This document shows, piece by piece, positions 6,486-35,472 of a stretch of 40,276 nt of DNA (position 1 is its first letter; every line of letters starts with the position of its first letter). This DNA comes from a virus, in the UHGV virus genome UHGV-0069047; one strand, 5' to 3'. The notes below the pieces were generated by a model. The model made no database searches. It saw only the letters and a program-made list of their open reading frames with translations, and was not told where the DNA came from. The position numbers and the translations under genes are program-made.

Positions 6486-6500
6486 TTACCTTTCAGGTAA
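6486..6500. promoter_or_regulatory. operator-like palindrome TTACC-TTTCA-GGTAA
   Basis: Perfect 5-N5-5 inverted repeat, intergenic. Confidence 0.5.
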
Positions 6501-6537
6501 TTTGCAAAACGTGCTGGATAGCAAACAAATTATTTGC

Positions 6538-6557
6538 TACTGTATAAATATACAGTT
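6538..6557 (+). promoter_or_regulatory. LexA (SOS) box upstream of antirepressor module
   Basis: TACTGTATAAATATACAGTT matches CTGT-N8-ACAG with AT-rich spacer, 5 nt before the first ATG. Confidence 0.6.
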
Positions 6558-6577
6558 ATTGCATGGAGAAGATTAAG

Positions 6578-6835
6578 ATGCAGCAGTATAACTATCCACT
6601 GGAAGACGGATTTACCGAAAGGATTCACACGCCGGGAGGCGTCAGGTCACTGGTGGAGGGATCGCACTTGATGAAATTACTCCGGGATCTCGATAAGGAT
6701 GGATTTAATGTCGATGGCCCACTTGCCGAACTGACTGCACTGATTAACTACGTCACCAGCTCACAGATGTCTATGCAGGATCTGCAAACACATCTCGACT
6801 ATTGTGCCGAACAATTACGAAAGCAAACCAGATAA
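6578..6835 (+). CDS. small protein homologous to the C-terminal domain of the adjacent antirepressor
   Basis: Aligns with the C-terminal ~70 aa of the 7153..7809 product; SD GGAGAAG before ATG 6578. Confidence 0.45.
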   Translation: MQQYNYPLEDGFTERIHTPGGVRSLVEGSHLMKLLRDLDKDGFNVDGPLAELTALINYVTSSQMSMQDLQTHLDYCAEQLRKQTR

Positions 6836-6866
6836 GGTTTGCAATTACCAAGTGGAGTGCTTATAT

Positions 6867-6881
6867 TTACCTTTGCGGTAA
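6867..6881. promoter_or_regulatory. operator-like palindrome TTACC-TTTGC-GGTAA
   Basis: Perfect inverted repeat, upstream of antirepressor gene. Confidence 0.45.
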
Positions 6882-6972
6882 ATTTACATCGCACTCCTCT
6901 TGTGCCATAGTAATCAGGCACTGGCAAAATCCAGTGCCGGGATTGGTCTCCCGGATTACTAAGTGGCGCATA

Positions 6973-6995
6973 CCACGCCAGACGTGGTTTTTTTA
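6973..6995 (+). terminator. rho-independent terminator
   Basis: CCACG-ccaga-CGTGG followed by TTTTTTTT. Confidence 0.55.
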
Positions 6996-7152
6996 TGCGT
7001 ATAGCACAGTCATGCCAGAATTATGGTGGGCTGAATGGGGGTCCGAAAGGACGCCGGTACCACTTAGGCCGGTAAGACCAACTCCGTTCAGTTCACCACC
7101 ATCTGATTGGTCTCAGCGGTGGTGATGTAATTCGCTAAGTGGAGACGCCATC

Positions 7153-7809
7153 ATGAACGCTCAACTCATCCCCGTATTCAACGGCACTATATCTAACGAA
7201 ACAGCCCTACTTTGTAATGCCCGCGATCTGCACGCTTTTTTAGGTGTTAAAAAGGTGTTTGCAGCATGGATTACAAATCGCATTTCAGAATACGAATTCA
7301 TTGAAAATCAAGACTATATTTTGCTTTCCAATTTGGGAAAGCAAACATCTGGTAGAGGCGGACACAACCGCAAAGAGTACCACCTCACCCTTGATACAGC
7401 CAAAGAGCTGGCGATGGTCGAGCGTAACGAAAAAGGTCGCCAGGTGCGACGCTACTTCATTGAATGCGAGAAACGTTTAAGACAACAAGAAACAAAAGTG
7501 GAGAAGGTCTTGTCAGGCTTCATGCCCGCCATTATGGAGGCGATCAAGCTGGAAGACAAAAAAGAATACAGTGCACCGCTGAAGCCCGGCTACCGGAGCC
7601 TGATTCATTCGCCGTCTGGTGTTCTCGGCCTGACGGAGAACTCACTGCTGATGAATTTGCTGAACCAGTTACAGGAAGACGGGCATGACGTATCGGGCGC
7701 GGCGGCGGAACTGACCACCATGTTCTGCTACATCGTTGGTGTGAGCAAATGCCTGCGTGATATCCAGACTCACGCGGAGTACATCAACGACAAAGCAGGA
7801 TTCTTCTGA
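7153..7809 (+). CDS. antirepressor (AntA-type N-terminal domain)
   Basis: N-terminal block (IPVFNGT...[10 protein letters not shown]...[32 protein letters not shown]) matches the AntA/AntB antirepressor domain as I recall it; SD GGAGACG. Confidence 0.65.
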
Positions 7810-7853: not shown

Positions 7854-7896
7854 TTGCAGACTGGGGGTGAATAGAGTACTATTACCCCAAAGGTAA
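7854..7896 (+). promoter_or_regulatory. sigma70-like promoter (TTGCAG-17-TACTAT) overlapped by operator TTACC-CCAAA-GGTAA
   Basis: -35 at 7854-7859, -10 at 7877-7882, palindrome at 7882-7896, strong SD GAGGGGG follows. Confidence 0.5.
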
Positions 7897-7922
7897 ACCG
7901 AGAGTTTACATGAGGGGGAAAC

Positions 7923-8111
7923 ATGGAAATCAACATCATTACATTGCTGAAGGCCATTATTGGCGGAGCGGGCTTAGGCTTTGCCCTACCAGGCGGATTA
8001 TCTTTCCTGCTTCCTGCTTTTACTGTTACAGCTGGGATAGCCTATGCATTTGCTGTGGCTGGTGCTGTTGCACTCCCTGCTATCTATGCCGCAAAGAAGT
8101 TAGCCAACTAA
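7923..8111 (+). CDS. small hydrophobic membrane peptide (62 aa)
   Basis: Strong SD; Gly/Ala-rich, two predicted TM helices. Confidence 0.5.
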   Translation: MEINIITLLKAIIGGAGLGFALPGGLSFLLPAFTVTAGIAYAFAVAGAVALPAIYAAKKLAN

Positions 8112-8112
8112 A

Positions 8113-8445: not shown

Positions 8446-8448
8446 ATA

Positions 8449-25296: not shown

Positions 25297-25311
25297 TTAC
25301 CTTTCAGGTAA
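25297..25311. promoter_or_regulatory. operator-like palindrome TTACC-TTTCA-GGTAA
   Basis: Identical to site at 6486; TTGACA hexamer 17 nt upstream. Confidence 0.5.
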
Positions 25312-25631
25312 GCAAAGAGTTCATTCCGGTTATTAACCTGACTGGCTTGTCGTTAAATTGAACAGGTGGAGTGAGCTTTTATTTTGAGCAGTACGGCGTA
25401 TGGCACATGCGCCGATAGCGGTCTGGATACGTTTAAGGGGCACCCTCCCTTGCTCGGGCAAACGAACCAGGTAGCCGGAATGTGCAAGCCCCGTTCATAT
25501 CGTCGGACCGAGGACTCACCATCCTGGCGATTCGGTGTGACGCCTCGGAAGAGACGAGGGTACAACGATGAGAGCATTTATGGAGCCGCGACAAAGTGTG
25601 GCGCCTTAACAGGCTAAGTGCTCTCAGCGTT

Positions 25632-25708
25632 GTGGCATTAGCTCAGTTTGACAGAGCAACCGCCTTCTAAGCGGTTGGTCGCAGGTTCGAATCCTGCATG
25701 CCACGCCA
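25632..25708 (+). tRNA. tRNA-Arg (anticodon UCU), phage-encoded
   Basis: Hand-folded cloverleaf: 7-bp acceptor GTGGCAT/ATGCCAC, D-stem GCTC/GAGC, anticodon stem ACCGC/GCGGT with loop CTTCTAA, T-arm GCAGG-TTCGAAT-CCTGC, encoded CCA. Confidence 0.85.
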
Positions 25709-25752
25709 GAATCACGCCTAAGGACCGTGATGCCAGAAGTTCCAGGTGCTTG

Positions 25753-25796
25753 GCGGTGATAGTTTCCCTTGAAGGACTATCACCGCCCTTTTTACA
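25753..25796 (+). terminator. rho-independent terminator after tRNA
   Basis: 12-bp stem GGCGGTGATAGT/ACTATCACCGCC followed by CTTTTT. Confidence 0.6.
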
Positions 25797-25871
25797 GCAG
25801 GACGCCATTGCGATGACTTCATGCTGTAAACCCGTGCAGCCACGGAAGGCAGAACTCATTGCTTCCAGTTC

Positions 25872-25895
25872 GCCCGGTTCGCCGGGCATTTTTTT
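25872..25895 (+). terminator. terminator or attenuator hairpin abutting the next gene's SD
   Basis: GCCCGG-ttcg-CCGGGC followed by ATTTTTTT, then AAGGTGAG SD and ATG 25907. Confidence 0.55.
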
Positions 25896-25906
25896 AAGGT
25901 GAGATT

Positions 25907-26278
25907 ATGAACGACCAGCAAATCGAAAAAGAAATCGTTGAGAAAGGCAAAACGGCACCGCGCGTTACGCCAGACCATATCGAAGGCATTATTGCTCAGG
26001 AGGCATATTTCACAGCAGAAGATGGTGCCTTTGGCAAAGCCATAAAAGCGAAACATACTGGCGGAGAGGTAAACTACCAGCCGCACGAATCACTTTCTCT
26101 GCTGACGTTCTGCGTCCTGGTGCTGCGCAACGGCTTCACCGTCACCGGAGAGAGCGCCTGTGCAAGCCAGGAAAACTTTGATGCAGAAATTGGTCGGAAG
26201 ATTGCCCGGCAGAATGCTGTAAACAAAATCTGGATGCTCGAAGGTTACTTGCTGAAGCAGAAGCTAAGCGAGCAATAA
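25907..26278 (+). CDS. conserved hypothetical phage moron protein (123 aa)
   Basis: Strong SD; plus-strand gene inside minus-strand late operon; possibly gp49-like family, from memory only. Confidence 0.55.
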   Translation: MNDQQIEKEIVEKGKTAPRVTPDHIEGIIAQEAYFTAEDGAFGKAIKAKHTGGEVNYQPHESLSLLTFCVLVLRNGFTVTGESACASQENFDAEIGRKIARQNAVNKIWMLEGYLLKQKLSEQ

Positions 26279-26282
26279 CACC

Positions 26283-26294
26283 GTGACATGTCAC
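26283..26294. repeat. 12-bp palindrome GTGACATGTCAC (copy 2 of 3)
   Basis: Perfect palindrome 5 nt after stop of the 25907..26278 gene. Confidence 0.7.
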
Positions 26295-26298
26295 AAAC

Positions 26299-26326
26299 AG
26301 CCAGCCGATGAGCTGGCTTTGTTTTA
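26299..26326 (+). terminator. rho-independent terminator
   Basis: AGCCAGC-cgatga-GCTGGCT followed by TTGTTTTA. Confidence 0.6.
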
Positions 26327-26368
26327 TCCTCATCAGAGGATATCAACGACATTATCCCCACCAGCGGA

Positions 26369-27844
26369 TTAAGCATATGGATCGTAATCTGTGATGGCCT
26401 TGCCTTGCTGGTTCTGCTGCCCGGGAATTCGCAGACGCTTCGACACAGGGAACGCAAACGTCAGCAGTAGCGCATCGCCTTTACCAGGAGAACGCCCAAG
26501 CCGCTCCTTGATATCTTCCTTCGGTTCGATAACGATTTTACCGTCCACTCGAACTTTGTACTCTGCCGCAGACAGGTCGTCCGCTGTTTCCTGGTCATCC
26601 AGCATGCCGCCCAGCCTCAGCCATGTCTTGCATGAGTTGAACATCTCCCCACGCTTGTTGAGCATCTGCGGGTCAGTAGACGCGCCACCGAACGGAACAA
26701 GTTGCCATGTGCGCCCCCAACCATCACCGATTGACTTCAGACCGGTACCGTAACCGAAGTCGATGAACACCGCGTCAGCCTGATACTGGTCTTCAAAGTC
26801 AGCGATACGCTTCGCCATAATCAGATCGTCGGTAGTCTTGTTGCCAGTCCACAGCACCTTACTGTGTAGCCCCTGCCGCAGGTATATCACCGCGTCATCA
26901 ACGCCTGAATATGCCGGGTCAACACCGATTATCACCGGAGCATGCGCCACCTGCGCAGCGGTTACCACCCGTTTCATTGCCTCATCAGTAAGACCGGTAG
27001 GGATAAACTGCAATTCAGATGCATCAGGGAATATGCCGCGCACACGGATTTTAACGAAGTCGCTGTCTTCCCCGTAGTCATCGACCCATTTCTGCAACTG
27101 CTGTTTGTTAGTGCCTTCCACCGTCCGGCTGTCAATCTGCGCAGTTTTCCAGCGGTGTTTATATTTGCGGAAACATTCGCGGAAACGCCCGGTGTTACGT
27201 GTAGGGTTTCCGAACGCCACCCAGATAATCTCAGTGTCTTCGTCCGTAAGCGCACCCTCAGCAACTTCCCACACCAGATCCGCAATGTTCGACGCTTCAT
27301 CGAATACCACGATGATGCGTTTGCGCTCGTTGTGTAGTCCGGCGAATGCCTCAGTGTTGTGCTCAGACCAGGGGATTGCGTCAGCTCGCCACCGCTTGTC
27401 GTGCCCAGGATCATTGCTGTACATCGCGGTAGCGGTACAGGTAAACCAGTCTTTCGTGATAGCAAGGTTCGACCACTTGATAATTTCCGGCCAGGTCTTC
27501 GTTCGTAGCTGGTTGTCGGTGTTGGCGGTCACCACGACCTTACAATCCTCGCAAGTGGACATGCCCCAGTTGATCAGCATTGAGATGAATGCGGATTTAC
27601 CAATACCGTGACCAGAAGCGCGTGCCAGCATAAGCGGCTGATAGCGCGTCTCTGGATTCTGCAGGTGATCACGTATCTCTCGGAACGCATCAGCCTGCCA
27701 CTGACGTGGACCGGTGGCATGTGCCAGTTCAGTCCCCTCTTCCCCCCACGGGAACGCATAGAGGGCATAGCCAAGCGGATCGTGAGTGAACCCTGCAATA
27801 TCCTCGATCAACTGCTCTTCAGGAGATAACGCTGCATCTGTCAC
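26369..27844 (-). CDS. terminase large subunit
   Basis: 491 aa; N-terminal ATPase-like and C-terminal nuclease-like regions; start overlaps terS stop. Confidence 0.8.
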   Translation of the reverse strand: MTDAALSPEEQLIEDIAGFTHDPLGYALYAFPWGEEGTELAHATGPRQWQADAFREIRDHLQNPETRYQPLMLARASGHGIGKSAFISMLINWGMSTCEDCKVVVTANTDNQLRTKTWPEIIKWSNLAITKDWFTCTATAMYSNDPGHDKRWRADAIPWSEHNTEAFAGLHNERKRIIVVFDEASNIADLVWEVAEGALTDEDTEIIWVAFGNPTRNTGRFRECFRKYKHRWKTAQIDSRTVEGTNKQQLQKWVDDYGEDSDFVKIRVRGIFPDASELQFIPTGLTDEAMKRVVTAAQVAHAPVIIGVDPAYSGVDDAVIYLRQGLHSKVLWTGNKTTDDLIMAKRIADFEDQYQADAVFIDFGYGTGLKSIGDGWGRTWQLVPFGGASTDPQMLNKRGEMFNSCKTWLRLGGMLDDQETADDLSAAEYKVRVDGKIVIEPKEDIKERLGRSPGKGDALLLTFAFPVSKRLRIPGQQNQQGKAITDYDPYA

Positions 27845-28569
27845 TGATTGCCATCCTGACGTTCTTTCAGTCTCTTCCTGGCTGCCGCTATGCGATCAGC
27901 AATTGTCACATTCACATTAACATCCAGGCGTTCTTTGAATGCGTTGACGTCGACGTGCTTACCAATCAGTTCGAGGTTTTTCACCTTGTCGGGCCATTTC
28001 ACCTTCTTCAGGATATGCTCGACATCCTCAACAGAGAGATCCGCCTCGCCATTCTCTTTTTGCAGAGAGGCCTGAGTCGTCTTGATAGTAGCGATATCCA
28101 TCGCGCTGAGAGAGGTGCGCCATACCTTAGGCCACTCAGCGATCGGCTTCATCCCGCCGTCGTCGTTCAAGATATCCAGGACATCCATCTGGTCGATCTC
28201 TACCAGGCGCATGAGGACGTAATCAGCGCTGACGCGCATTCGTTTGTTGCGCTCCTCCATCAACTCGGCAATCCGTTTTTGAATGCGTTCATCGCGCATC
28301 ATGACACTGGCTTTAACTGCCGCTGTATTTGGGGAGAATCCTGCGTTAATCGCTGCCTGAGTCTGGTTTTCAGGCGTTTTGATGTATGACTGGCAATAAG
28401 CCTCCTGCATTGCTGTTAGTGGCTTAAATTGCGTTGATTTGCGTTTATAGGTTTTAGGTTCAGCAGGCATCATAACCACCGTGGTAATAGTTACCGTTGT
28501 GGTAATAGTACCATGCAAAATAAAGCCGCCATAGTTGGCGGCAGTATTCAAAACCATCAAATTCATCAT
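27841..28569 (-). CDS. terminase small subunit
   Basis: Immediately upstream of and overlapping terL; true start may be the internal MMPAEP (near 28473). Confidence 0.6.
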   Translation of the reverse strand: MMNLMVLNTAANYGGFILHGTITTTVTITTVVMMPAEPKTYKRKSTQFKPLTAMQEAYCQSYIKTPENQTQAAINAGFSPNTAAVKASVMMRDERIQKRIAELMEERNKRMRVSADYVLMRLVEIDQMDVLDILNDDGGMKPIAEWPKVWRTSLSAMDIATIKTTQASLQKENGEADLSVEDVEHILKKVKWPDKVKNLELIGKHVDVNAFKERLDVNVNVTIADRIAAARKRLKERQDGNQ

Positions 28570-28582
28570 GCATAATCTACTC

Positions 28583-28594
28583 GTGACATGTCAC
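28583..28594. repeat. 12-bp palindrome GTGACATGTCAC (copy 3 of 3)
   Basis: Perfect palindrome overlapping the stop of the 28591..28941 gene, just upstream of terS. Confidence 0.7.
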
Positions 28595-28941
28595 ACTATT
28601 AATTTCGTTTCATGCCAGCCTTTAGTCACCCAGCATTGCGAGTCACCATTACACGGGCATGAATTAACTGGAACTCTCTCGCCGCACTTACCGCAACATT
28701 TTCTGCTGATCGATTTTATACGCCCGCGCACGCGTGCATCATCCTGGCGGATCAGTAACGCTATATACTCACCAAATTCGTAAGGCGCACGCCCGGGGCG
28801 ACGCGTGGCACAGTTACGCTCCAGCATTTCAATTTCCTGAGCATCAAGCACAATTTCCAGCTTACGCACACCAGATGCAGCTTGTCTGGCTCTCTGAGCG
28901 GCTTTGCGCTCTGCTGCTGATTTAGCCATTACCATATCCAC
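28591..28941 (-). CDS. hypothetical protein with Cys-rich C-terminus
   Basis: Basic helical N-terminus; C-terminal CCGKCG...CPCNGDSQC zinc-ribbon-like cluster. Confidence 0.4.
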   Translation of the reverse strand: MDMVMAKSAAERKAAQRARQAASGVRKLEIVLDAQEIEMLERNCATRRPGRAPYEFGEYIALLIRQDDARVRGRIKSISRKCCGKCGERVPVNSCPCNGDSQCWVTKGWHETKLIV

Positions 28942-29014
28942 CCAATTTCACCAGACATGATTCTCGCAATCACTATCATCACCAAAGTGATAATCACAAC
29001 TTTAACTGGCGGCA

Positions 29015-29896
29015 TTATTCACCATCCTGCTCCGGCGGTTCTGGTAGCGGCATCCAGTGTGACGGTTTCCACGACGCACCAGGAATTATCCACCCATCAT
29101 TAGCGTCAGGATGCCCCGGGATGTAAGTCGCCCATTTCATTCGCCAGTCACCTTTCCTGTCAAACTCCACGGCAACAAGAACGGCTGTTTTGGTATCCGG
29201 CATTCGCTCACTACAGCTTATCCAACTATCCGGAGTTGCCGGATAGTTGCCAGACAGTGCGTTCTGCAATCGTTCCAGCTTAACGTATTCCTGAACCCTG
29301 TTTCCGTCGCACGCCTGAAGCCATTGCACAGCCTTTTGCGCATCAGTGTGAAAGGTACAAGTGCGACCGTCATCAAATTGCATTTCGTAGAGGTCAGCAA
29401 CCTGTTTAAACTGCGTTTGTGGCGACTTGTAAGTTTGGTTTACAGGTTCGGCACCATGAAGCATGGCGGCGCGGCAGGAGTTAAGCGCGTTTTGCACGCG
29501 TTTAGCGTTCTGTACTTCGTATTTAGGTGCGGCTGCCAATGCCCATAGCCAACCAATTTCATAGCTATCAGCTTTTGATAGAGCACATTCCATTTCCAGT
29601 GTTATTTTCTTAGGTACGAGTTGCCAATCATCTGGCACTACCGGTGCTGGCAGCTCGCGATACAGCGAGATTACACGACGCGGGTCCGCATATTTATCTG
29701 GCGGACACTGAAATATCTCACCGAAACCATACTTCCTGACATCGCGCAGTTCCTCTTCATCAGTCCATGCCACCGGTTCTGCTTCCAGCGATGCCAGCGC
29801 AATCCGTGCCAGTTCCATTTGTTCACCACGGGTAAGCCCGTTTTCAAGCGGATTTTTAATGAACAATTCAATACGTTCTTTGGTAATAGTGGTCAT
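29015..29896 (-). CDS. DUF551-like Ead/Ea22-region protein
   Basis: C-terminal block (WISCSERMPD...WMPLPEPP) resembles DUF551 as I recall it; start overlaps upstream stop (ATGA). Confidence 0.5.
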   Translation of the reverse strand: MTTITKERIELFIKNPLENGLTRGEQMELARIALASLEAEPVAWTDEEELRDVRKYGFGEIFQCPPDKYADPRRVISLYRELPAPVVPDDWQLVPKKITLEMECALSKADSYEIGWLWALAAAPKYEVQNAKRVQNALNSCRAAMLHGAEPVNQTYKSPQTQFKQVADLYEMQFDDGRTCTFHTDAQKAVQWLQACDGNRVQEYVKLERLQNALSGNYPATPDSWISCSERMPDTKTAVLVAVEFDRKGDWRMKWATYIPGHPDANDGWIIPGASWKPSHWMPLPEPPEQDGE

Positions 29897-30102
29897 GTGT
29901 TAATCCTCAAAACTTTATGCCCGGGCGCAAAAGTACGTGTTTTGTCTTTGCTTATTCGCCAGCCATCCTTGCGCGCCTCTTTTGCACAGCCAGCCCATGA
30001 CGTACCTATATACTCACCGAAGTCTGGCACTGGATATACACCTTCCGTGCACTGACGGCAGTCACAATAGAGATGCATGGTGTAACTTGCGGCAATAGCC
30101 AT
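29893..30102 (-). CDS. small Cys-containing hypothetical protein (69 aa)
   Basis: Start at MAIAAS with SD AAGGAGA; translationally coupled on both sides. Confidence 0.4.
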   Translation of the reverse strand: MAIAASYTMHLYCDCRQCTEGVYPVPDFGEYIGTSWAGCAKEARKDGWRISKDKTRTFAPGHKVLRINT

Positions 30103-30103
30103 A

Positions 30104-30625
30104 TCATTCTCCTTTGATGCGAATGCCTGTTGCAATGCTGTTTATGATGCTGTCAGTGCATGGGGTAGAAAGCTGGGCATCTCCAGCAATTTTCATGACC
30201 TCAACATCCGCATATCGAATACCGAGGTGTATCAGACCGGCTATACCTGACTTAAGTCGAACATTTTCCATAAACAGATCTTTTTCCCGCTGTTTAGCGG
30301 CTTCCAACTCCATCGACAATTTTTCCAACTGCTCTTTATGCTTCTTGTATTCCTGATACGCGTGCCAAGACTGACCTTTGCGCACACTATCAGTGATATC
30401 AGCAACCTGCTCCGGTGTTAGCGTGGTCAGTGGCTGTGCTGGAAAAATCATCACTTTCCCGGCATCCCAATCAAAACCCGCCTGAATTGACTGAACCTCA
30501 ACTGATGGTGTTGAACCGATGCGACCAGGCGAATGAACAACGATCGTTACATCCATATCGCGACGATGGCTGTGGTTGTTGGACAAAATACGATTCACCA
30601 ACTCAGAAAATTTGGAAAATTTCAT
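30104..30625 (-). CDS. Ead/Ea22-like protein
   Basis: Start at MKFSKF overlapping upstream stop; coiled-coil segment; C-terminal GIRIKGE tail shared with the 30947..31435 product. Confidence 0.45.
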
Positions 30626-30945
30626 GCTGATCCCTCTTTCTCTCCCCGGATAATTCTGTTGCACACATCCACACACTCGTCGCAGATGAAAACGGCGTCC
30701 CCAGCAATTAACTTTTTGACGGCGTACTGGGATTTGTTGCAGAAGCTGCAACAAAGTGTTCGCCTGACTGATAAGGATGGAGCGCCAGATGTCAGCCGCT
30801 CCATATCGTTCTTGCGACGCAATATCACACGGCTGAACTCAACCAGTTTCTCCGGGGATATCTCCTCCTCCGTAGCAAGCGCCTCTAATCGTTCGAGTAT
30901 GTGGAAGGCTTTTTTCTGGGTAATTGCAGAATGCGATGTGGTCAT
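30622..30945 (-). CDS. ClpX-type zinc-finger domain protein
   Basis: C-terminal [34 protein letters not shown] closely matches the ClpX N-terminal zinc-binding domain pattern; start MTTSHS with SD. Confidence 0.55.
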
Positions 30946-30946
30946 C

Positions 30947-31435
30947 TCACTCTCCTTTGATGCGAATGCCAGCGGCGCGGGAATCATTCCATCGCTTTAC
31001 TTCTTCACGAATTACGTCAATGCATTCTTTCGAATCCATTAGGTAATCTTCATCAAAAAGACGTTCCTGTTCGTTTTCTATCGCAACAATGATTGCTTCA
31101 ACTAACTTTTGTGCCTGAGAATCACTTTCTAACTCTGCTATGCGCTTACTTCCATCCGAGATAACGCCCTCGTAATACTCACGCTGCTCGTTGAGTTTTG
31201 ATTTTGCCAACTCCAGTTGTTTTGTTAGTTCCGCAATACGGCAAACATCGTTGATACGCGTTTCCTCTAATGCGTTGATCTCATCCAACAATGCCAGCGC
31301 GATATCTGGCGAAAAGTGCTTCATAAAATCGTTAAGCGCATTAATTCGCTGATCGAAAGGCATTACAGGTGCTTCACCAGCAATTTTTGTTTTTTCAGCG
31401 ATTTCACGAAGCTTTTGATAATCAATCTTGCTCAC
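30947..31435 (-). CDS. Ead/Ea22-like coiled-coil protein
   Basis: 162 aa helical protein ending in GIRIKGE. Confidence 0.45.
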
Positions 31436-31958
31436 TGACTGCCTCCTTCTTAATCAGTTTACACAGGTGCTCCACAGCCACAGAGAGTGCATCCACCGCT
31501 CGTTTATCCAGGCTCGGGGCCAGAGCAACCAGTTCATTTATTGCAATCTGAATACCCTGCGCTCGCGATTTTTCCAGAATGGCGTCAATAGCTGGCGTGT
31601 CGGGCATGAGTGGCGATTCATCCGCAGGCGAATATTCATCAGAAATGTCGGCCTGCTCTCCATGAAATACATAGCAACTGCCCTTGATAAACCGCTTCAA
31701 TGCGACATTCTCCGCCGCAAGCGCCGAAAACTTCTCGTGTGCCAACTTAACAGCCGCATCAGCCTGCTTAATTGACTCAATCGCTTTCTGCTGGTCTTCG
31801 GCCAGCGCATTAGCACGCACCAGTTGCACTTCCAGTTGCGTTGCCAAATCGCTGATCAGCTTTGCCACACTGCGCATATCAACGGCACCACATTCTGCTT
31901 TCAGTTCCGAAGCCATCTCATGCCCGGCGGAAACTAACCCTTTGATATTACTTTCCAT
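31422..31958 (-). CDS. hypothetical protein (178 aa)
   Basis: ORF in nin/Ead-like region; helical. Confidence 0.45.
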   Translation of the reverse strand: MESNIKGLVSAGHEMASELKAECGAVDMRSVAKLISDLATQLEVQLVRANALAEDQQKAIESIKQADAAVKLAHEKFSALAAENVALKRFIKGSCYVFHGEQADISDEYSPADESPLMPDTPAIDAILEKSRAQGIQIAINELVALAPSLDKRAVDALSVAVEHLCKLIKKEAVSEQD

Positions 31959-32019
31959 CTTTACCCTCGCTTATCCACATAACTTATTGATTACATTGAT
32001 AACTAAAAAGATCGTCGAT

Positions 32020-32364
32020 TCAGAACTCTTCGATATTCCAGCCACCACCTGCTTTCTTTGGTTTAACCGTTACCCCGATGATTCGGAACGGATACTGATC
32101 TGCGGCGACTTTGGTTTTCACCCTGGCGTCGTCGGTCCAGAAACCTTTCACTTCGTGCAGTTCCATCTCTCCGGTGGCGAGCATCACAGCGAAATCTGGC
32201 GTATAGAACGTGTTGTCAGCTAACCGCAGCTTGATACCCTCAAATCGATACCAGACGATTTCTCCTGCACGTTTACGCATCTCAAGGTGCTGACAATACG
32301 CAGATTCTGTTTTGTTCATCTGGCCTGTTTTGAGTCGACCAAGAGCCTGTATCTGTTTTCTCAT
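32020..32364 (-). CDS. small PD-(D/E)XK-like nuclease (DUF1064-like)
   Basis: Motifs YTPDF and ELHEVKG resemble a D...ExK nuclease core. Confidence 0.4.
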   Translation of the reverse strand: MRKQIQALGRLKTGQMNKTESAYCQHLEMRKRAGEIVWYRFEGIKLRLADNTFYTPDFAVMLATGEMELHEVKGFWTDDARVKTKVAADQYPFRIIGVTVKPKKAGGGWNIEEF

Positions 32365-32429
32365 GATTTACCCCTGAGGTAATTAAAAACCACATAAGAC
32401 ACGAAATCAATAGATTTTAGAATATTTTA

Positions 32430-32444
32430 TTACCTCATAGGTAA
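32430..32444. promoter_or_regulatory. operator-like palindrome TTACC-TCATA-GGTAA
   Basis: Perfect inverted repeat in the intergenic region between P-like gene and downstream genes. Confidence 0.45.
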
Positions 32445-32481
32445 TTATTGAGACGTAAAAAAATGCGCTATCGCGCTGGTA

Positions 32482-33282
32482 TTACTTGATAAATCCTGCC
32501 GCCTTTCCCCGCCTGTATTCCTCCATCAGCCACTGCGCCGGTGTTATTCCCCCCAGGGTGGCGGCGTTAGGCATGCACCCGAAACTTCGCCCTGATGGAT
32601 GGTAAACGTCTCTCCCTGTGTCCGGAGGTGTACTCATGGGTTCTGGCTTTGCCTGTATGCTGATCACCGGATCGGGTATCTGCTGTCCGGAAGCTACCTT
32701 TTTCGCCCAATCATCGAGCAGCCTGCGCGCGTGTTTCTCAACCTCAATCTCGCTAAGCTGGCGCTGATACATTGCACGGCGGGTATCACATACGACCCAG
32801 TACATAACCGGATGTCGCCACGGAAATCTTTCGGGACCACCAGGATATAAACTTTTTTCCTTGCTGTACCGGTGAAACTCCGCCATCACATCGTCAATGG
32901 TGACGCCAAGAACCATCTTGCTGTCTTTGCACCACTTGATAAATTGCCCTGGCGACGGCCAGAACGGAGATTCGCTGGCGCGGGCGTGGCGCATACCAGC
33001 AGAAACCTGTTCACGGGTTCGGATCCCCCCTTCGGCAAACGCAGCAATCCACTGCTGTTTTGCAGCAACTTCCTGCTCTGGCGTCTTCAGGTTGGTTACC
33101 ACTGCCGCCGGAAACAGTTGTTTCAACTGTTTGAAAAGGGCATCAACAAGCCTCTCTGCTGACATGTTCACTACGTTGTCATTGTTGGTGTACTGATGCT
33201 CATAACCTGACATGCGAGAAAGGGCTTCTCCGTCACGGTTTTGTATCGCGGTAAAAACGTTGTTCACAAGAAATCCTCCCAT
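32482..33282 (-). CDS. replication protein, lambda P-like helicase loader
   Basis: Block AGMRHARASESPFWPSPGQFIKWC matches lambda P (NAGMRVARRQNRPFLPSPGQFVAWC) from memory; exact start uncertain. Confidence 0.7.
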   Translation of the reverse strand: MGGFLVNNVFTAIQNRDGEALSRMSGYEHQYTNNDNVVNMSAERLVDALFKQLKQLFPAAVVTNLKTPEQEVAAKQQWIAAFAEGGIRTREQVSAGMRHARASESPFWPSPGQFIKWCKDSKMVLGVTIDDVMAEFHRYSKEKSLYPGGPERFPWRHPVMYWVVCDTRRAMYQRQLSEIEVEKHARRLLDDWAKKVASGQQIPDPVISIQAKPEPMSTPPDTGRDVYHPSGRSFGCMPNAATLGGITPAQWLMEEYRRGKAAGFIK

Positions 33283-34079
33283 GCTTCAGGGCTGTTCCAG
33301 TGCGGAACGTTGTTATCAGGTAATGTTGATTGCTTCTGTCTGCTAATCTGCAGCCGCCTTGCCAGCTTCTGCTCCCACTGTGCCTGATGGTATGCCTTAC
33401 CCTCAGCCATCCAGTAAATTCTGAACTCTGCAAGTTCCTGTGCCGTTGGCAGACTGTCCAGGTAGATCCCCTGCAATGAGCTTTTCCGAAGAAAGTCATC
33501 TGATGGTTGCCATTGTTCATGCATGACAAATTTGCCTAATTGCCCTGGCCCACCAGGAGGAACAAAGTTATTCATCACGGCGTTGTTTGCGCCGGGGTCA
33601 TGAGGCACAGAATCCCCGCTTTTTGTCCTGCTCTCCCTCTCTTGGTTAAATGACTGGTTATATGACTGGTTCTGGATCCCGTTTTTGGGATCATTCAACA
33701 TCCCGTTTTTGGGATCATTCAACATCCCGTTTTTGGGTATATTCCCGTTTTCGGTAACATTACCGCTTTCGGGTTCATTACCCCCTTCCCGGTTGCCTTT
33801 AATGTTCCCGTTTTTGGTTATATTAAGAGAGAAAACCCGCACTCTTTTCGTCGCTCCCTTTCTCTCTCCGGTATCTGAAATAAGCCCCATTTTCATGAGC
33901 GATATAAGCCCGGCCTGCACGGTTTTTTTATTCATGCAAGTGTCTTTAACGAGGCGTTCTATGCTGGGGTAGCAGAGGTTATATTCATCGGCTCTGTCAG
34001 CCATCGAGAGCAGTATGAGCTTTAATGACGAGCTACCTGGATCTGTCTCCCAGGCCCAATCTGTTGCATGTCTGCTCAT
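33264..34079 (-). CDS. replication initiator, O-like
   Basis: N-terminal winged-helix-like region, internal iteron array encoding repeated PKNGMLND peptides, directly upstream of P-like gene. Confidence 0.6.
   Translation of the reverse strand: MSRHATDWAWETDPGSSSLKLILLSMADRADEYNLCYPSIERLVKDTCMNKKTVQAGLISLMKMGLISDTGERKGATKRVRVFSLNITKNGNIKGNREGGNEPESGNVTENGNIPKNGMLNDPKNGMLNDPKNGIQNQSYNQSFNQERESRTKSGDSVPHDPGANNAVMNNFVPPGGPGQLGKFVMHEQWQPSDDFLRKSSLQGIYLDSLPTAQELAEFRIYWMAEGKAYHQAQWEQKLARRLQISRQKQSTLPDNNVPHWNSPEAWEDFL
33676..33824. repeat. origin-like iteron array inside initiator gene
   Basis: Two perfect 24-bp units ATCCCGTTTTTGGGATCATTCAAC, then about four degenerate CCGTTTT-GG-type units. Confidence 0.65.
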
Positions 34080-34094
34080 GATTAATCTCCGCTA

Positions 34095-34358
34095 TCAGCT
34101 TGAATGTTGTGGGGAGGAATTAATCATGATCTGCTTAATCTCTGCCCTGATACGACGGTTTGATTCCATGGTGCACTCAACACAGTGTCCATTGTAAACC
34201 CAGCGTTCACTGTCATGTCCGTGCTTACATGTTTTTCCGGTGTAGTAGCGTTTAAGTCCGCGCTTTGCGGCATCAATACGTGTAATGATTTCCATGGTAA
34301 GCCCTGTTATTAGTATTGGGATTACGGTTATTTTGTGCTGACACAAAAAAAAGATCAA
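34095..34358 (-). CDS. small zinc-finger protein at the cII position
   Basis: Likely start at MEIITR; CKHGHDSERWVYNGHCVEC cluster; between cro-like and O-like genes. Confidence 0.4.
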   Translation of the reverse strand: MIFFLCQHKITVIPILITGLTMEIITRIDAAKRGLKRYYTGKTCKHGHDSERWVYNGHCVECTMESNRRIRAEIKQIMINSSPQHSS

Positions 34359-34375
34359 CCATATTTGGTTTTTTA

Positions 34376-34390
34376 TTACCTTTAAGGTGC
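34376..34390. promoter_or_regulatory. imperfect operator-like site TTACC-TTTAA-GGTGC
   Basis: One half-site variant; adjacent AACCATATTTGGTT palindrome. Confidence 0.35.
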
Positions 34391-34445
34391 GAATAGATAT
34401 GAAAAGACCGCCGGGTGGCGGTCTACAGAGGGGTGTAGCTGGATA

Positions 34446-34676
34446 TCATGAGTAGAAGAAGTATGCCAGTTCTGCTTTTGAGCGCAACCATTGTCTTGTT
34501 TTACAGGCTTTAAAAAGCCCGTTCATCAATACTTTACCTGGCATTTTGCGCTTACCTGTTAAGTGAGTCTGGATATAGTGACTCGTCGTTCCGGCTTCCT
34601 GTGCGAAGGCTTCACGCTCATCCGGAGTAAGTGCAAGCCAGTGCTTTTTGAAATCGAAATGTCCGTTATCGCTCAT
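34446..34676 (-). CDS. Cro-like HTH regulator
   Basis: 76 aa with HTH-like segment; divergent from repressor gene; first gene of the replication-side operon. Confidence 0.5.
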   Translation of the reverse strand: MSDNGHFDFKKHWLALTPDEREAFAQEAGTTSHYIQTHLTGKRKMPGKVLMNGLFKACKTRQWLRSKAELAYFFYS

Positions 34677-34712
34677 AGCTATTGCCTGATATTTATTTCA
34701 GATAATAAATAT

Positions 34713-34775
34713 TCACCCATAAGGTAACAAAAATCAAGGATAGTTACCTATGAGGTGCATTTACCTGTTGGGTAA
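34713..34775. promoter_or_regulatory. OR-like operator cluster in the immunity switch
   Basis: Three sites: TCACC-N5-GGTAA (34713-34727), TTACC-N5-GGTGC (34744-34758), TTACC-N5-GGTAA (34761-34775). Confidence 0.55.
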
Positions 34776-34830
34776 TATTGCTTTAAATTGAATCATCTAC
34801 TGATTCATATATGAGGCGATTTTCCAGAAA

Positions 34831-35415
34831 ATGAAAAGTATCCAGGACGTCCGCAGGCAAAATCTCAACGACTTGATCGACCGTGAATTCAATGGTGTTC
34901 AGACGCGGATGGCAGAAAAACTTGGAACTCAGGCAAATCTGGTAAACCGCTGGGCTCTTGGCAAGAAGGTTATCGGCGACCAGGTTGCGCGAAAAATTGA
35001 AGCTGCCGCCAATAAACCACGTAACTGGCTTGATATCGATCGCTCGCTTTCTCAGGAAGGTTTTCAGCCTGTCGGCCCAAGCGACATTGGTCAGCTGGCG
35101 GCTCACAACCTGGAACGCTGGATGAGCGAAAGCCGCGACCTTTCAACACAGGGAAAACTTCACCGCGCATCCGGCGTCGCCCAGGTGACAATCAGCCGCC
35201 TGTTAAACAATGAGGTCAGCGTTTCCATTTCCACCCTGGAGAATGTTGCATCCGCATTCGGGCGTCACGGCTATGAATTACTGATTCACCCGCACGACCC
35301 TGCGACCATCAACTATGACCGCTCGCGCTACGCATTGTTACCCGAAACCGAGAAAGCAAAGATCGAAAGTTACATTGAATTTGTCATCAACCAGAACGAA
35401 AAAAACAAACAATAA
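34831..35415 (+). CDS. prophage repressor-like protein lacking an S24 peptidase domain
   Basis: 194 aa with two HTH-like segments, no Ala-Gly / Ser-Lys autocleavage module; divergent from cro-like gene. Confidence 0.55.
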   Translation: MKSIQDVRRQNLNDLIDREFNGVQTRMAEKLGTQANLVNRWALGKKVIGDQVARKIEAAANKPRNWLDIDRSLSQEGFQPVGPSDIGQLAAHNLERWMSESRDLSTQGKLHRASGVAQVTISRLLNNEVSVSISTLENVASAFGRHGYELLIHPHDPATINYDRSRYALLPETEKAKIESYIEFVINQNEKNKQ

Positions 35416-35436
35416 AATCATATTTTTCAGTAAGTA

Positions 35437-35461
35437 AGCCGCCTTCTGGCGGCTTTTTTAT
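35437..35461 (+). terminator. rho-independent terminator after repressor gene
   Basis: AGCCGCC-ttct-GGCGGCT followed by TTTTTTA. Confidence 0.65.
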
Positions 35462-35472
35462 TGTCTACACAA

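What the first reader, a model, noticed from the sequence alone, without database searches (positions are those of the whole stretch)
6538..7809. Perfect LexA box directly upstream of an antirepressor module, paired with a repressor that lacks an autocleavage domain
TACTGTATAAATATACAGTT (CTGT-N8-ACAG) lies 5 nt before the first ATG of a two-gene plus-strand unit: a 90-aa protein resembling the antirepressor C-terminal domain and a 218-aa AntA-type antirepressor. The 194-aa repressor shows no S24 peptidase module. Together these predict SOS induction by LexA-derepressed antirepressor rather than RecA-stimulated repressor cleavage, as described for Gifsy-type and 186-type phages. Two TTACC-N5-GGTAA sites bracket the same module, implying dual control.
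Basis: partly seen in the sequence, partly recalled or inferred. Interest (0 to 1): 0.55.

Follow-up and report, generated by a model that had tools for sequence, protein, structure and literature searches.

The report
SOS-controlled phage antirepressor module

Summary
TACTGTATAAATATACAGTT lies at 6538-6557, two mismatches from the 20-bp LexA consensus, and is the only such site in the window (0/100 shuffles). The window is a Uetakevirus (97.5% identical to E. coli phage phiv142-3).

The small ORF is not just "antirepressor-like". It is the orthologue (87% identity) of Ant of Salmonella phage SPC32H. The 194-aa protein is the orthologue of SPC32H Rep (PDB 5D50) and has no S24 peptidase domain. 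One of the two bases separating SPC32H from its variant SPC32N falls in the ACAG half of the box at the same position. So LexA-Ant-Rep induction is well supported, but it is already known for this genus.

The "two-gene unit" is wrong in detail.
- The real start is probably ATG 6578 (85 aa).
- Between the genes lie a repressor operator flanked by two candidate promoters, an isrK-like RNA with a terminator, and a C4 antisense RNA.
- The exposed C4 segments pair with the ribosome-binding site of the 218-aa gene, and they co-vary with their targets across five phages.
- The 218-aa protein is an AntA N-domain fused to a second copy of the Ant domain.

TTACC-N5-GGTAA is the genome-wide predicted Rep operator: 10 sites in the window, 3 of them here.

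Verdict: an ordinary member of a known system with an undescribed tandem layout. Interest is low to moderate.

The parts
6486..6500 (.). Predicted Rep operator TTACCTTTCAGGTAA, lying between the divergent tailspike gene and ant1 and 1 nt upstream of the candidate -35 TTGCAA (6502-6507).
   Evidence: The same site is found at the same place in relatives. The homologous epsilon15 site is annotated 'protein_bind repressor; lysogeny'.
6538..6557 (.). LexA (SOS) box TACTGTATAAATATACAGTT.
   Evidence: Across Uetakeviruses the half-sites are conserved and the spacer varies. The SPC32H-to-SPC32N G>T change falls in the ACAG half of the homologous box.
6578..6835 (+). ant1: an 85-aa antirepressor, orthologue of SPC32H Ant. 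SD GGAGA at 6565-6569. The ORF-finder start at 6563 gives 90 aa and is probably not used.
   Evidence: 86.7% identity to SPC32H ant. PDB 5D50_E E=4e-46. phrog_450. Start-codon argument.
6839..6867 (+). Candidate promoter P_up (TTGCAA-17-TATATT). Its -10 abuts the next operator, so it is probably Rep-repressed.
   Evidence: A -35/-10 pair abutting the operator is present in all five cassette-bearing phages, even where the upstream sequence is unrelated.
6867..6881 (.). Predicted Rep operator TTACCTTTGCGGTAA, between P_up and the isrK promoter.
6883..6911 (+). Candidate isrK promoter (TTTACA-17-CATAGT with TG upstream), placing the transcription start near 6918.
   Evidence: Conserved in window, phiV10, TL-2011b, Tyrion and Kp4865-1.
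6918..6994 (+). isrK-like sRNA. It carries the upstream copies of the C4 targets (TTGGTCT 6943-6949, CTAAGTGG 6959-6966) and ends in an intrinsic terminator (6972-6988 plus a T7 run).
   Evidence: Rfam RF01394, 67.7 bits, gathering score 50. Terminator. Target copies.
7019..7103 (+). C4-type antisense RNA. Exposed loop CCACUUAG (7060-7067) and single-stranded AGACCAA (7075-7081).
   Evidence: Rfam RF01695, 61.2 bits, gathering score 45. Fold and complementarity. Co-variation with targets in five phages.
7107..7142 (+). ant2 leader with the downstream C4 targets: TTGGTCT 7107-7113 and CTAAGTGG 7135-7142. The second overlaps the ant2 SD GGAG (7140-7143).
7153..7809 (+). ant2: a 218-aa antirepressor made of an AntA N-domain (residues 22-92) and a C-terminal domain (about 128-213) homologous to ant1 / SPC32H Ant.
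   Evidence: Pfam AntA E=4e-26. 42% identity to Ant1 over 83 aa, E=1e-17. 5D50_E E=4.6e-14. phrog_377. Relatives carry a Bro-N N-domain with the same C-domain. Overexpressing the ZX5 homologue lowers lysogeny (PMC9782041).
7882..7896 (.). Predicted Rep operator TTACCCCAAAGGTAA, downstream of ant2. It abuts a weak promoter-like TTGCAG-17-TACTAT (7854-7882) in front of small membrane-protein genes.
34831..35415 (+). rep: a 194-aa repressor with two HTH-type domains and no S24 domain, orthologue of SPC32H Rep. It is flanked by operators at 34761, 35473 and 35535.
   Evidence: PDB 5D50_A E=4e-42 and 5D4Z_A E=4e-20. Pfam matches HTH families only. 100% identical to the Rep of phiV10, phiv142-3 and ZX5, and 41.8% identical to SPC32H Rep.
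25297..35549 (.). The seven remaining TTACC-N5-GGTAA sites, starting at 25297, 28491, 32368, 32430, 34761, 35473 and 35535. They lie upstream of the portal and terminase operons and within or around the immunity region.
   Evidence: Contexts. Syntenic sites in SPC32H, and sites annotated as repressor sites in epsilon15.

Best explanation
The region is the antirepression (induction) module of a phiV10/epsilon15-type temperate podophage. It has two tiers.

Tier 1 is known from SPC32H.
- In the lysogen, host LexA sits on the box at 6538-6557, at or just downstream of the ant1 transcription start, and keeps ant1 silent.
- Rep holds the lytic promoters off through about 10 TTACC-N5-GGTAA operators. 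Rep is a two-HTH-domain protein that binds DNA as a tetramer and has no autocleavage domain.
- DNA damage activates RecA and LexA cleaves itself. The 85-aa Ant1 is then made, binds Rep and takes it off the DNA.

- Immediately downstream lies a separate cassette: operator-flanked promoters, an isrK-like RNA with a terminator, a C4 antisense RNA, then ant2.
- C4 RNA pairs through its hairpin loop and an adjacent single-stranded stretch with the ant2 leader, covering the Shine-Dalgarno sequence. This blocks Ant2 translation, as c4 does for icd/ant in P1 and P7.
- The isrK RNA carries a second copy of both target sequences.
- Ant2 is an AntA N-domain fused to a second Ant domain, so it most likely attacks the same Rep.
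- It probably serves as an anti-immunity or commitment device under Rep and RNA control, not as the SOS sensor.

Shown here: sequence homologies, positions, RNA family matches and the co-varying complementarity.

Inferred: LexA binding, Ant1-Rep and Ant2-Rep binding in this phage, which promoters are used, and the direction of Rep's effect at each operator.
For: LexA box.
- It is unique in the window and near consensus.
- It sits at the same position in E. coli, Salmonella and Enterobacter Uetakeviruses, with fixed CTGT/ACAG halves and a variable spacer.
- SPC32H and SPC32N differ at only two bases, and one changes ACAG to AAAG in the homologous box.

Ant1 and Rep.
- Ant1 is 86.7% identical to the gene annotated 'ant: anti-repressor protein' in SPC32H and matches PDB 5D50 chain E at E=4e-46.
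- Rep matches 5D50 chain A at E=4e-42, has no S24 domain, and no LexA- or CI-like sequence exists in the window.
- Reviews state that in SPC32H an antirepressor made after LexA self-cleavage inactivates the repressor, and that tetrameric Ant binds two Rep dimers (PMC7380047; PMC9638917).
- Rep, Ant and the Ant-like domain occur in essentially the same 34-36 phage records.

Operators.
- The motif occurs 10 times against 0.01 expected.
- It is syntenic in SPC32H and annotated as repressor sites in epsilon15.

Tier 2.
- Both Rfam matches exceed their gathering scores.
- The C4 loop and single-stranded segment are each complementary to two target copies, one of which overlaps the ant2 SD.
- Three loop alleles and three single-strand alleles across five phages are matched by compensating changes in both target copies, with one mismatch in Tyrion.
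- The operator-promoter-isrK-C4-ant2 unit stays intact when it lies 914 or 1306 bp from ant1, and it is absent from SPC32H, epsilon15, BUCT554, BUCT711 and PAS61.
- The Ant2 C-domain is homologous to Ant.
- Overexpressing the ZX5 Ant2-type protein cut lysogens about 1000-fold. Its C-domain is 93% identical to the window's and its Rep is identical to the window's (PMC9782041).
- In Gifsy-1, an isrK-STnc1160-anrP locus controls translation of an antirepressor that induces the prophage (PMC4825925).
Against: - No experiment exists for this phage. LexA binding and both protein-protein interactions are inferred.
- Rep is only 41.8% identical to SPC32H Rep (38% in the Ant-binding C-terminal domain), while Ant1 is 87% identical. 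The 5D50 interface may not transfer exactly.
- The consensus scan found no sigma-70 promoter over or next to the LexA box. The best guess, TTGCAA-17-ACAAAT, has a poor -10.
- The primary SPC32H papers (Kim & Ryu 2013; Kim et al. 2016) could not be read here. Their content is cited from memory, from reviews and from database annotations.
- The operator at 6486 could serve the divergent tailspike promoter and not ant1.
- The operator at 6867 lies at about -44 relative to the isrK start, a position from which a bound protein could activate as easily as repress.
Confidence: 0.8

Rival explanations
1. One reading: one LexA-controlled two-gene operon, in which the 218-aa AntA-type protein is the SOS-induced antirepressor and the small protein is an accessory.
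For: Both genes are on the + strand and are 317 nt apart. No terminator is predicted between the ant1 stop and isrK, so LexA-released transcripts do enter the cassette. Overexpressing an Ant2-type protein lowers lysogeny in ZX5.
Against: - An intrinsic terminator (6972-6994) lies between the genes, together with two candidate promoters and a Rep operator.
- The ant2 SD is covered by a co-varying antisense RNA.
- SPC32H and epsilon15 carry the LexA box and the small ant alone, and that gene is the one named ant in SPC32H.
- In TL-2011b and Kp4865-1 the ant2 cassette lies 0.9-1.3 kb from ant1 and keeps its own operator and promoter.
- phiV10 has a truncated Ant2.
Confidence: 0.1
2. SOS relay (this adds to the best explanation and does not exclude it). 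LexA-released ant1 transcripts run on to the isrK terminator, so SOS floods the cell with RNA carrying both C4 target copies. That RNA titrates C4, or remodels the leader as IsrK does in Gifsy-1, and so switches on Ant2 translation. The result is a feed-forward second wave of antirepressor.
For: - No terminator is predicted between the ant1 stop (6835) and isrK.
- isrK carries exact copies of both C4 targets.
- ant1 and the cassette are adjacent (79-82 nt apart) in the window, phiV10 and Tyrion.
Against: Adjacency is not conserved: the gap is 914 bp in TL-2011b and 1306 bp in Kp4865-1. The cassette has its own promoters. There is no expression data. The orf45-type coupling ORF of Gifsy-1 is not conserved here.
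Confidence: 0.25
3. Ant2 does not target this phage's Rep. It acts on repressors of other prophages (cross-talk), or it modulates Ant1 by forming mixed oligomers through the shared Ant domain.
For: Gifsy antirepressors act on non-cognate repressors (PMC3121763). SPC32H Ant is a tetramer, so a paralogous domain could co-assemble with it. The N-domain is swapped between AntA and Bro-N among relatives.
Against: In 50,697 phage records the Ant-like C-domain is found only in genomes that also encode this Rep family. Overexpressing the ZX5 Ant2-type protein reduces lysogeny of its own phage, whose Rep is identical to the window's.
Confidence: 0.1
4. The palindrome is a chance match, or it controls the divergent tailspike gene and not ant1.
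For: The bare CTGT-N8-ACAG pattern is not enriched. No strong promoter is called next to the box.
Against: The 20-mer match is unique, with 0 of 100 shuffles giving a hit. Its position 20 nt before the ant1 start is conserved across genera with a variable spacer. It lies 157 bp from the tailspike start. One of the two SPC32H/SPC32N differences maps to the homologous box.
Confidence: 0.02

Closest known systems
Rep/Ant antirepression switch of Salmonella phage SPC32H (Kim & Ryu 2013, J Virol 87:11775; Kim et al. 2016, PNAS 113:E2480; PDB 5D50 and 5D4Z)
   Same: - Same genus.
- The small Ant is 87% identical, and the gene sits in the same place, divergent from the tailspike.
- The LexA box is at the same position.
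- Rep has the same two-domain, S24-less architecture.
- The same TTACC-N5-GGTAA motif occupies syntenic sites, including pairs 62 bp apart.
   Different: Rep is only 42% identical. SPC32H has ant alone, followed by a convergent gene. The window adds the isrK-C4-ant2 cassette and small membrane-protein genes.
immI of phages P1 and P7: c4 antisense RNA, icd, ant (Citron & Schuster 1990; Rfam RF01695)
   Same: - The C4 RNA passes the family threshold.
- Two exposed segments (a', b') are complementary to one target pair upstream and one downstream of the RNA in the same transcript.
- The downstream pair covers the ribosome-binding site in front of an antirepressor gene.
- The pairing segments occur as specificity alleles.
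- A repressor operator lies at the promoter region (P1 details from memory and PMC7313666).
   Different: There is no icd-like coupling ORF, and the target covers the ant2 SD directly. The antirepressor protein and the repressor it meets are unrelated to P1 Ant and C1. The unit sits next to a LexA-controlled paralogue.
Gifsy-1 isrK-orf45(STnc1160)-anrP locus (Hershko-Shalev et al. 2016, PMC4825925)
   Same: An isrK family RNA with a leaky terminator is followed by a processed RNA and an antirepressor gene. Control is at the level of translation, and the antirepressor induces the prophage.
   Different: orf45 is not conserved here. The downstream effector in Gifsy-1 is AntQ-linked. In Gifsy phages the LexA-controlled antirepressor lies elsewhere and is unrelated in sequence.
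Phage N15: LexA-controlled AntC plus the immA anti-immunity operon controlled by a small processed RNA (Mardanov & Ravin 2007; Ravin et al. 1999)
   Same: One phage carries both an SOS-regulon antirepressor for induction and a small-RNA-controlled antirepressor (PMC4488713; PMC3121763).
   Different: In N15 the two systems lie at separate loci, and no relationship between their proteins is known to me. Here they are adjacent and share a homologous effector domain.
186 Tum and Gifsy GfoA/GftA LexA-controlled antirepressors
   Same: The logic is the same: LexA represses a small antirepressor that inactivates a non-cleavable repressor by binding it.
   Different: No sequence relationship was detected. 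Ant1 matches no Pfam family and only phrog_450, phrog_15539 and the C-terminus of phrog_1760.

Membership tests
SPC32H-type Rep/Ant antirepression system | A small (about 86 aa) Ant protein homologous to SPC32H Ant. | tested here: met
   86.7% identity by tblastn. PDB 5D50_E E=4e-46 over residues 2-84.
SPC32H-type Rep/Ant antirepression system | A Rep homologous to SPC32H Rep: an N-terminal DNA-binding domain plus a C-terminal HTH-type domain, with no S24 autocleavage domain. | tested here: met
   5D50_A E=4e-42 full length and 5D4Z_A E=4e-20. Pfam matches HTH families only. No LexA- or CI-like hit in the window. Identity is only 41.8%.
SPC32H-type Rep/Ant antirepression system | A LexA box at the ant promoter, at the conserved position upstream of ant. 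| tested here: met
   Unique near-consensus 20-mer. Same position as in SPC32H, epsilon15, phiV10, Tyrion and BUCT554. An SPC32N mutation falls in the homologous box.
SPC32H-type Rep/Ant antirepression system | LexA actually binds the box. Ant binds Rep and releases it from DNA. Rep is not cleaved during SOS. | not testable with these tools
   This needs EMSA, pull-down and western experiments. It is known only for SPC32H (reviews).
P1/P7-type C4 antisense RNA control of an antirepressor (Rfam RF01695) | An RNA matching the C4 covariance model above the gathering score. | tested here: met
   61.2 bits against 45, covering the full model 1-87. Relatives score 73-78 bits.
P1/P7-type C4 antisense RNA control of an antirepressor (Rfam RF01695) | Two exposed segments complementary to targets in the same transcript, with the downstream target covering the ribosome-binding site ahead of ant. 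| tested here: met
   CCACUUAG pairs with CTAAGTGG at 6959 and at 7135, the latter overlapping the SD. AGACCAA pairs with TTGGTCT at 6943 and 7107. Compensatory alleles occur in five phages.
P1/P7-type C4 antisense RNA control of an antirepressor (Rfam RF01695) | An icd-like (P1) or orf45-like (Gifsy-1) upstream ORF whose translation is coupled to ant. | tested here: not met
   ORFs starting after the isrK terminator are 26, 24, 24, 4 and 45 aa long in the five phages and are not conserved in frame or end point.
isrK RNA family (Rfam RF01394) | An RNA matching the isrK model, with a terminal intrinsic terminator, upstream of a C4/STnc1160-like RNA and an antirepressor gene. | tested here: met
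   67.7 bits against 50. Terminator at 6972-6988 plus a T7 run. The gene order matches Gifsy-1.
AntA/AntB antirepressor family (Pfam PF08346) | An AntA domain above the curated cutoff. | tested here: met
   The 218-aa protein scores 91.8 bits against a cutoff of 27, residues 22-92. This defines only the N-domain. The C-domain is Ant-like.
RecA-dependent autocleaving repressors (lambda CI / LexA, Peptidase S24) | An S24 peptidase domain in the prophage repressor. | tested here: not met
   No S24 hit in Rep at E<=0.1. No tblastn hit of LexA or CI in the window better than E=1.3.
186 Tum / Gifsy GfoA-GftA antirepressors | Sequence homology to Tum (DinI-like C-terminal half) or to the Gifsy antirepressors. 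| tested here: not met
   Ant1 has no Pfam family hit apart from a sub-threshold DUF724 match. Its PHROG hits are limited to phrog_450, phrog_15539 and phrog_1760. It was not compared directly with Tum or GfoA sequences.

The most novel reading that the evidence does not exclude
phiV10-group phages run a two-stage antirepressor circuit built from one portable Rep-binding (Ant) domain. The first stage is a free-standing copy released by LexA cleavage. The second is a copy fused to an AntA or Bro-N domain and locked by a C4 antisense RNA. The ant1 transcript ends in the isrK element, which carries both C4 target sequences. SOS-driven ant1-isrK RNA would therefore titrate C4 and unlock Ant2, making induction a self-reinforcing, RNA-relayed switch. 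The several C4 pairing alleles would add a second, RNA-based immunity specificity on top of an identical Rep.
Probability: 0.25. Interest if true: 0.5.

Novelty: new member of a known kind. Interest (0 to 1): 0.3.

Why it matters
The window shows that the SPC32H mechanism, LexA-controlled Ant acting on a non-cleavable Rep, carries over to the E. coli phiV10 group.
- At least 80% of the module is present in 74 of 5,426 complete E. coli genomes.
- The small gene is still annotated 'hypothetical protein' there, and in the phiV10, phiv142-3 and ZX5 records.
- The one experimental paper on such an E. coli phage tested only the large antirepressor. It does not mention the small Ant, a LexA box or the RNAs.

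Correct annotation would explain mitomycin C inducibility in these prophages, which include O157 typing phages and serotype-converting phages.

The tandem layout gives a compact system for asking how SOS-dependent and RNA-dependent antirepression are combined. It holds a free Ant domain and a fused Ant domain under different controls, and at least four C4 pairing types exist among the five phages compared, three of which (window, phiV10 and TL-2011b) have identical or near-identical Rep. Each element taken alone is already known.

Tried and rejected
- Primary papers. I tried to read Kim & Ryu 2013, Kim et al. 2016 and Kropinski et al. 2007. None is held, so SPC32H facts come from GenBank and PDB annotations, reviews and my memory of the abstracts.
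- Bare LexA motif. CTGT-N8-ACAG alone is not significant. The second hit, at 21284, has a GC-rich spacer and I dismissed it.
- Promoter at the box. The consensus scan found no promoter overlapping the LexA box. Hand inspection gives only a weak -10, so the ant1 promoter stays unresolved.
- Coupling ORF. I looked for an orf45- or icd-like ORF across C4 and found none conserved.
- Hidden autocleaving repressor. I looked for one anywhere in the window and found none.
- Wider Ant-domain distribution. The protein search returned only close, mostly 85-86 aa Enterobacterales homologues with no Pfam domain. tblastn of the Ant2 C-domain hit only the phages that already carry Ant and Rep.
- Structure. 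I considered predicting the Ant2 structure but skipped it, because the sequence match to 5D50_E (E=4.6e-14) already answers the question.
- GTGCTGGATAG. I considered whether this conserved block upstream of the box is a shared regulatory motif. It does not recur near other operators.
Full report
**What is in the sequence**

The 20-mer TACTGTATAAATATACAGTT sits at 6538-6557. The loose pattern CTGT-N8-ACAG is not enriched: 2 hits against 0.63 expected. The full LexA consensus TACTGTATATATATACAGTA, allowing three mismatches, matches only here. It does so with two mismatches outside the CTGT/ACAG cores, and no shuffle of 100 gave any match.

An ORF starts 5 nt downstream, at ATG 6563. That ATG is in frame only because of a single extra base that phiv142-3, phiV10 and the others lack. 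The start annotated in every relative, and present in the crystallised protein, is ATG 6578, preceded by GGAGA at 6565-6569. The product is therefore 85 aa.

The 218-aa ORF at 7153-7809 has a Pfam AntA domain.

**Where the window comes from**

The region is 97.5% identical to Escherichia phage phiv142-3. It is related to phiV10, TL-2011b, ZX5, epsilon15 and SPC32H, all in the genus Uetakevirus. The module lies between the divergently transcribed tailspike gene (3730-6381, minus strand) and the structural genes, exactly as in those phages.

**The small protein and the repressor are a solved pair**

- The 85-aa protein is 86.7% identical to the SPC32H gene annotated 'ant: anti-repressor protein'. 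It matches PDB 5D50 chain E ('Anti-repressor protein') at E=4e-46.
- The 194-aa ORF at 34831-35415 matches 5D50 chain A ('Repressor') over its full length at E=4e-42, and 5D4Z at E=4e-20.
- Its only Pfam hits are HTH families, with no Peptidase_S24. Nothing in the window resembles LexA or lambda CI.
- Reviews report that in SPC32H an antirepressor made after LexA self-cleavage inactivates the repressor (PMC7380047).
- They also report that Rep binds DNA as a tetramer, which a tetrameric Ant takes apart (PMC9638917).
- My memory of the Kim & Ryu 2013 abstract adds that Rep is not cleaved during SOS. It also says SPC32N, which differs from SPC32H by two nucleotides, carries a LexA-box mutation that makes Ant constitutive. 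The primary papers were not available.

I compared the two deposited genomes directly. They differ at exactly two positions. One changes TACTGTATGTTTATACAGTG to ...ATAAAGTG in the ant orientation, which destroys the ACAG half of a box at the same position relative to the ant start as the window's box.

**Conservation of the box**

In ten relatives the box occupies the same position upstream of ant. CTGT and ACAG are fixed while the 8-bp spacer varies (ATAAATAT, GTATTTAT, ATATTTAT, ATGTTTAT, ATAAGCAT, ACATATAT). Only the two Klebsiella phages have a weakened left half. That pattern is what selection on a LexA site predicts.

The ant1 promoter itself is not resolved. The consensus scan calls nothing over the box. 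The best hand reading is TTGCAA (6502-6507), 17 nt, then ACAAAT, which would put the box at about +1 to +20.

**The TTACC-N5-GGTAA sites**

There are ten sites in the window against 0.01 expected. Three surround this module, at 6486, 6867 and 7882.

SPC32H also has ten, at syntenic places: upstream of ant, of the small terminase gene and of the portal operon, on both sides of rep, and a pair in the early operon. In both phages some pairs are exactly 62 bp apart.

The epsilon15 GenBank record annotates seven such sites, including the one upstream of its ant homologue gp19, as 'protein_bind: repressor; lysogeny'. These are therefore the predicted Rep operators of the whole genome, not a special feature of this module.

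In several places a -10-like hexamer abuts the operator (6862-6867, 7877-7882, and the strong TTGACA promoter before 35535). At ant1 and at isrK the operator instead lies 1 nt upstream of a -35-like hexamer.

The 317 nt between the two genes are not a spacer. Rfam finds an isrK RNA at 6918-6994 (67.7 bits, threshold 50) ending in an intrinsic terminator (6972-6988 plus T7). It also finds a C4 antisense RNA at 7019-7103 (61.2 bits, threshold 45).

In the predicted C4 fold, the second hairpin loop (CCACUUAG, 7060-7067) and the following single-stranded stretch (AGACCAA, 7075-7081) are each exactly complementary to two sites:
- TTGGTCT and CTAAGTGG inside isrK (6943, 6959);
- the same two words in the ant2 leader (7107, 7135), where the second overlaps the ant2 Shine-Dalgarno GGAG.

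This is the a1 b1 / c4 / a2 b2 layout of P1 and P7 immI (from memory of Citron & Schuster 1990; summarised in PMC7313666).

The pairing is supported by co-variation:

| Phage | C4 loop | Loop target | C4 single strand | Single-strand target |
|---|---|---|---|---|
| window | CCACUUAG | CTAAGTGG | AGACCAA | TTGGTCT |
| phiV10, TL-2011b | CCUUUUAG | CTAAAAGG | ACGCCAA | TTGGCGT |
| Tyrion | CCUUUGUAG | CTACAAAGG | AGACCAA | TTGGTCT |
| Kp4865-1 | CCUUUGUAG | CTACAAAGG | GUCUCAA | TTGAGAC |

In every case both target copies match, apart from one mismatch in Tyrion's isrK copy.

**The cassette is a unit of its own**

isrK and C4 are present in the window, phiv142-3, phiV10, TL-2011b, Tyrion and Kp4865-1. 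They are absent from SPC32H, epsilon15, BUCT554, BUCT711 and PAS61, all of which still have the LexA box (degenerate in BUCT711) and the small ant.

The same block is conserved in all cassette-bearing phages: a -35/-10 pair, the operator, TTTACA-17-CATAGT, then isrK. This holds in TL-2011b and Kp4865-1, where the cassette lies 914 and 1306 bp from ant1 and the sequence upstream of the operator is unrelated.

No orf45- or icd-like ORF is conserved across C4.

Similar isrK-C4 units precede antirepressor, Bro-N or Rha-type genes in APSE, Stx, phiP27 and Yersinia phages. In Gifsy-1, isrK-orf45/STnc1160-anrP controls translation of an antirepressor that induces the prophage. IsrK and STnc1160 are abundant in lysogens (PMC4825925; PMC7067206).

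**The second antirepressor**

The C-terminal third of the 218-aa protein is homologous to Ant1: 42% identity over 83 aa, E=1e-17. It also matches 5D50_E at E=4.6e-14.

In TL-2011b, Tyrion and Kp4865-1 the N-domain is Bro-N instead of AntA, but the C-domain is the same. phiV10's copy is truncated inside that domain.

Among 50,697 phage records the Ant-like domain, free or fused, occurs only in the roughly 35 records that also encode this Rep family. This argues that Ant2 targets the same Rep.

There is direct support from phage ZX5. Its Rep is 100% identical to the window's, and its Bro-N/Ant-type ORF4 has a C-domain 93% identical to the window's Ant2. Overexpressing ORF4 cut lysogens from 10^9 to 10^6, and the prophage is inducible with mitomycin C (PMC9782041). 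That paper does not mention the small Ant, a LexA box or the RNAs.

**Mechanism proposed**

- Lysogen: Rep occupies its operators, LexA holds ant1 off, and the isrK promoter supplies IsrK plus some read-through RNA. C4 is made from the read-through RNA and blocks ant2 translation.
- DNA damage: LexA is cleaved and Ant1 is made. Rep is then stripped from the DNA and lytic promoters fire. The Rep-occluded P_up promoter of the cassette fires too, which could outrun C4 and add Ant2.
- Shown: the homologies, positions, RNA matches and co-variation.
- Inferred: every binding event and every promoter assignment in this phage.
- More speculative: no terminator is predicted between ant1 and isrK, so SOS-driven ant1 transcripts would carry the isrK target copies and could titrate C4. 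I rate this at about 0.25, because adjacency of ant1 and the cassette is not conserved.

**Caveats**

Rep is only 41.8% identical to SPC32H Rep (52% in the N-domain, 38% in the C-domain), whereas Ant1 is 87% identical. I cannot explain this asymmetry, and it means the 5D50 interface is assumed, not demonstrated, for this Rep. The operator at 6486 may serve the tailspike promoter. The operator at 6867 is centred near -44 of the isrK start, a position compatible with activation as well as repression.

**Comparison and novelty**

As a LexA/Ant/Rep switch, this is a member of the SPC32H system by every feature that could be tested. As an RNA-controlled antirepressor, it works like P1/P7 immI and Gifsy-1 isrK-anrP but lacks their coupling ORF.

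One phage carrying both an SOS-controlled and a small-RNA-controlled antirepressor has a precedent in N15, with AntC plus immA (PMC4488713, PMC3121763). What I have not seen described is the tandem arrangement of two paralogous Ant domains under these two different controls.

At least 80% of the module is present in 74 of 5,426 complete E. coli genomes, where the small gene is annotated 'hypothetical protein'.

**Overall**

The finding is a new member of a known kind, and interest is low to moderate (0.3).

Noticed in passing
window 32368/32430 and 35473/35535; L005 (SPC32H) 33604/33666 and 35972/36034: Pairs of TTACC-N5-GGTAA operators lie exactly 62 bp apart, start to start, in both phages. 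The spacing would suit one Rep tetramer bridging two sites on the same face of the helix.
   Followed up: partly
window 6578-6835 versus 34831-35415: Ant1 is 87% identical to SPC32H Ant. Its presumed target Rep is only 41.8% identical (C-terminal, Ant-binding domain 38%). The antirepressor is far better conserved than the repressor, and I have no explanation.
   Followed up: partly
L002 (phiV10) 3748-4427: phiV10's second antirepressor (PhiV10p23, 194 aa) is cut short by a frameshift inside the Ant-like C-domain. TL-2011b has the intact 231-aa form. phiV10 may therefore lack a working Ant2.
   Followed up: partly
L010 (Kp4865-1) 2495-2755 and 4298 onwards: The Klebsiella phage Ant1 carries the block [12 protein letters not shown], which is otherwise typical of Ant2 C-domains. 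This suggests exchange between the two paralogues. The same phage has a degenerate left LexA half-site, ATGT in place of CTGT.
   Followed up: no
window 6510-6521: GTGCTGGATAG is a block conserved in the E. coli, Salmonella and Enterobacter relatives, lying between the candidate -35 and the LexA box. It has no assigned role and does not recur near other operators.
   Followed up: partly
window 7854-8704: Downstream of ant2 lie three small genes: 7923-8111 (62 aa), 8113-8445 (110 aa) and 8471-8704 (77 aa). From their sequences the first two look like membrane proteins and the third appears to have a signal peptide; this was not tested with a predictor. PHROGs gives 'unknown function', plus one 'membrane associated protein' moron family. 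They are preceded by a weak TTGCAG-17-TACTAT abutting operator 7882. They may be Rep-controlled accessory genes.
   Followed up: partly
window 25632-25705 (+): A tRNA gene (Rfam 70.4 bits) whose anticodon loop reads UCU (Arg). It corresponds to the tRNA-Arg annotated in SPC32H, and an operator lies nearby at 25297.
   Followed up: no
L011 (TL-2011b) 2783-3871; L010 (Kp4865-1) 2756-4061: Insertions of about 0.9 and 1.3 kb separate ant1 from the isrK-C4-ant2 cassette in these two phages. The TL-2011b stretch is annotated only as 'similar to hypothetical protein' on the opposite strand.
   Followed up: no
window 21284-21299: A second CTGT-N8-ACAG match (CTGTTACGACCCACAG) with a GC-rich spacer. 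It does not fit the 20-mer LexA consensus within three mismatches and is probably chance.
   Followed up: partly
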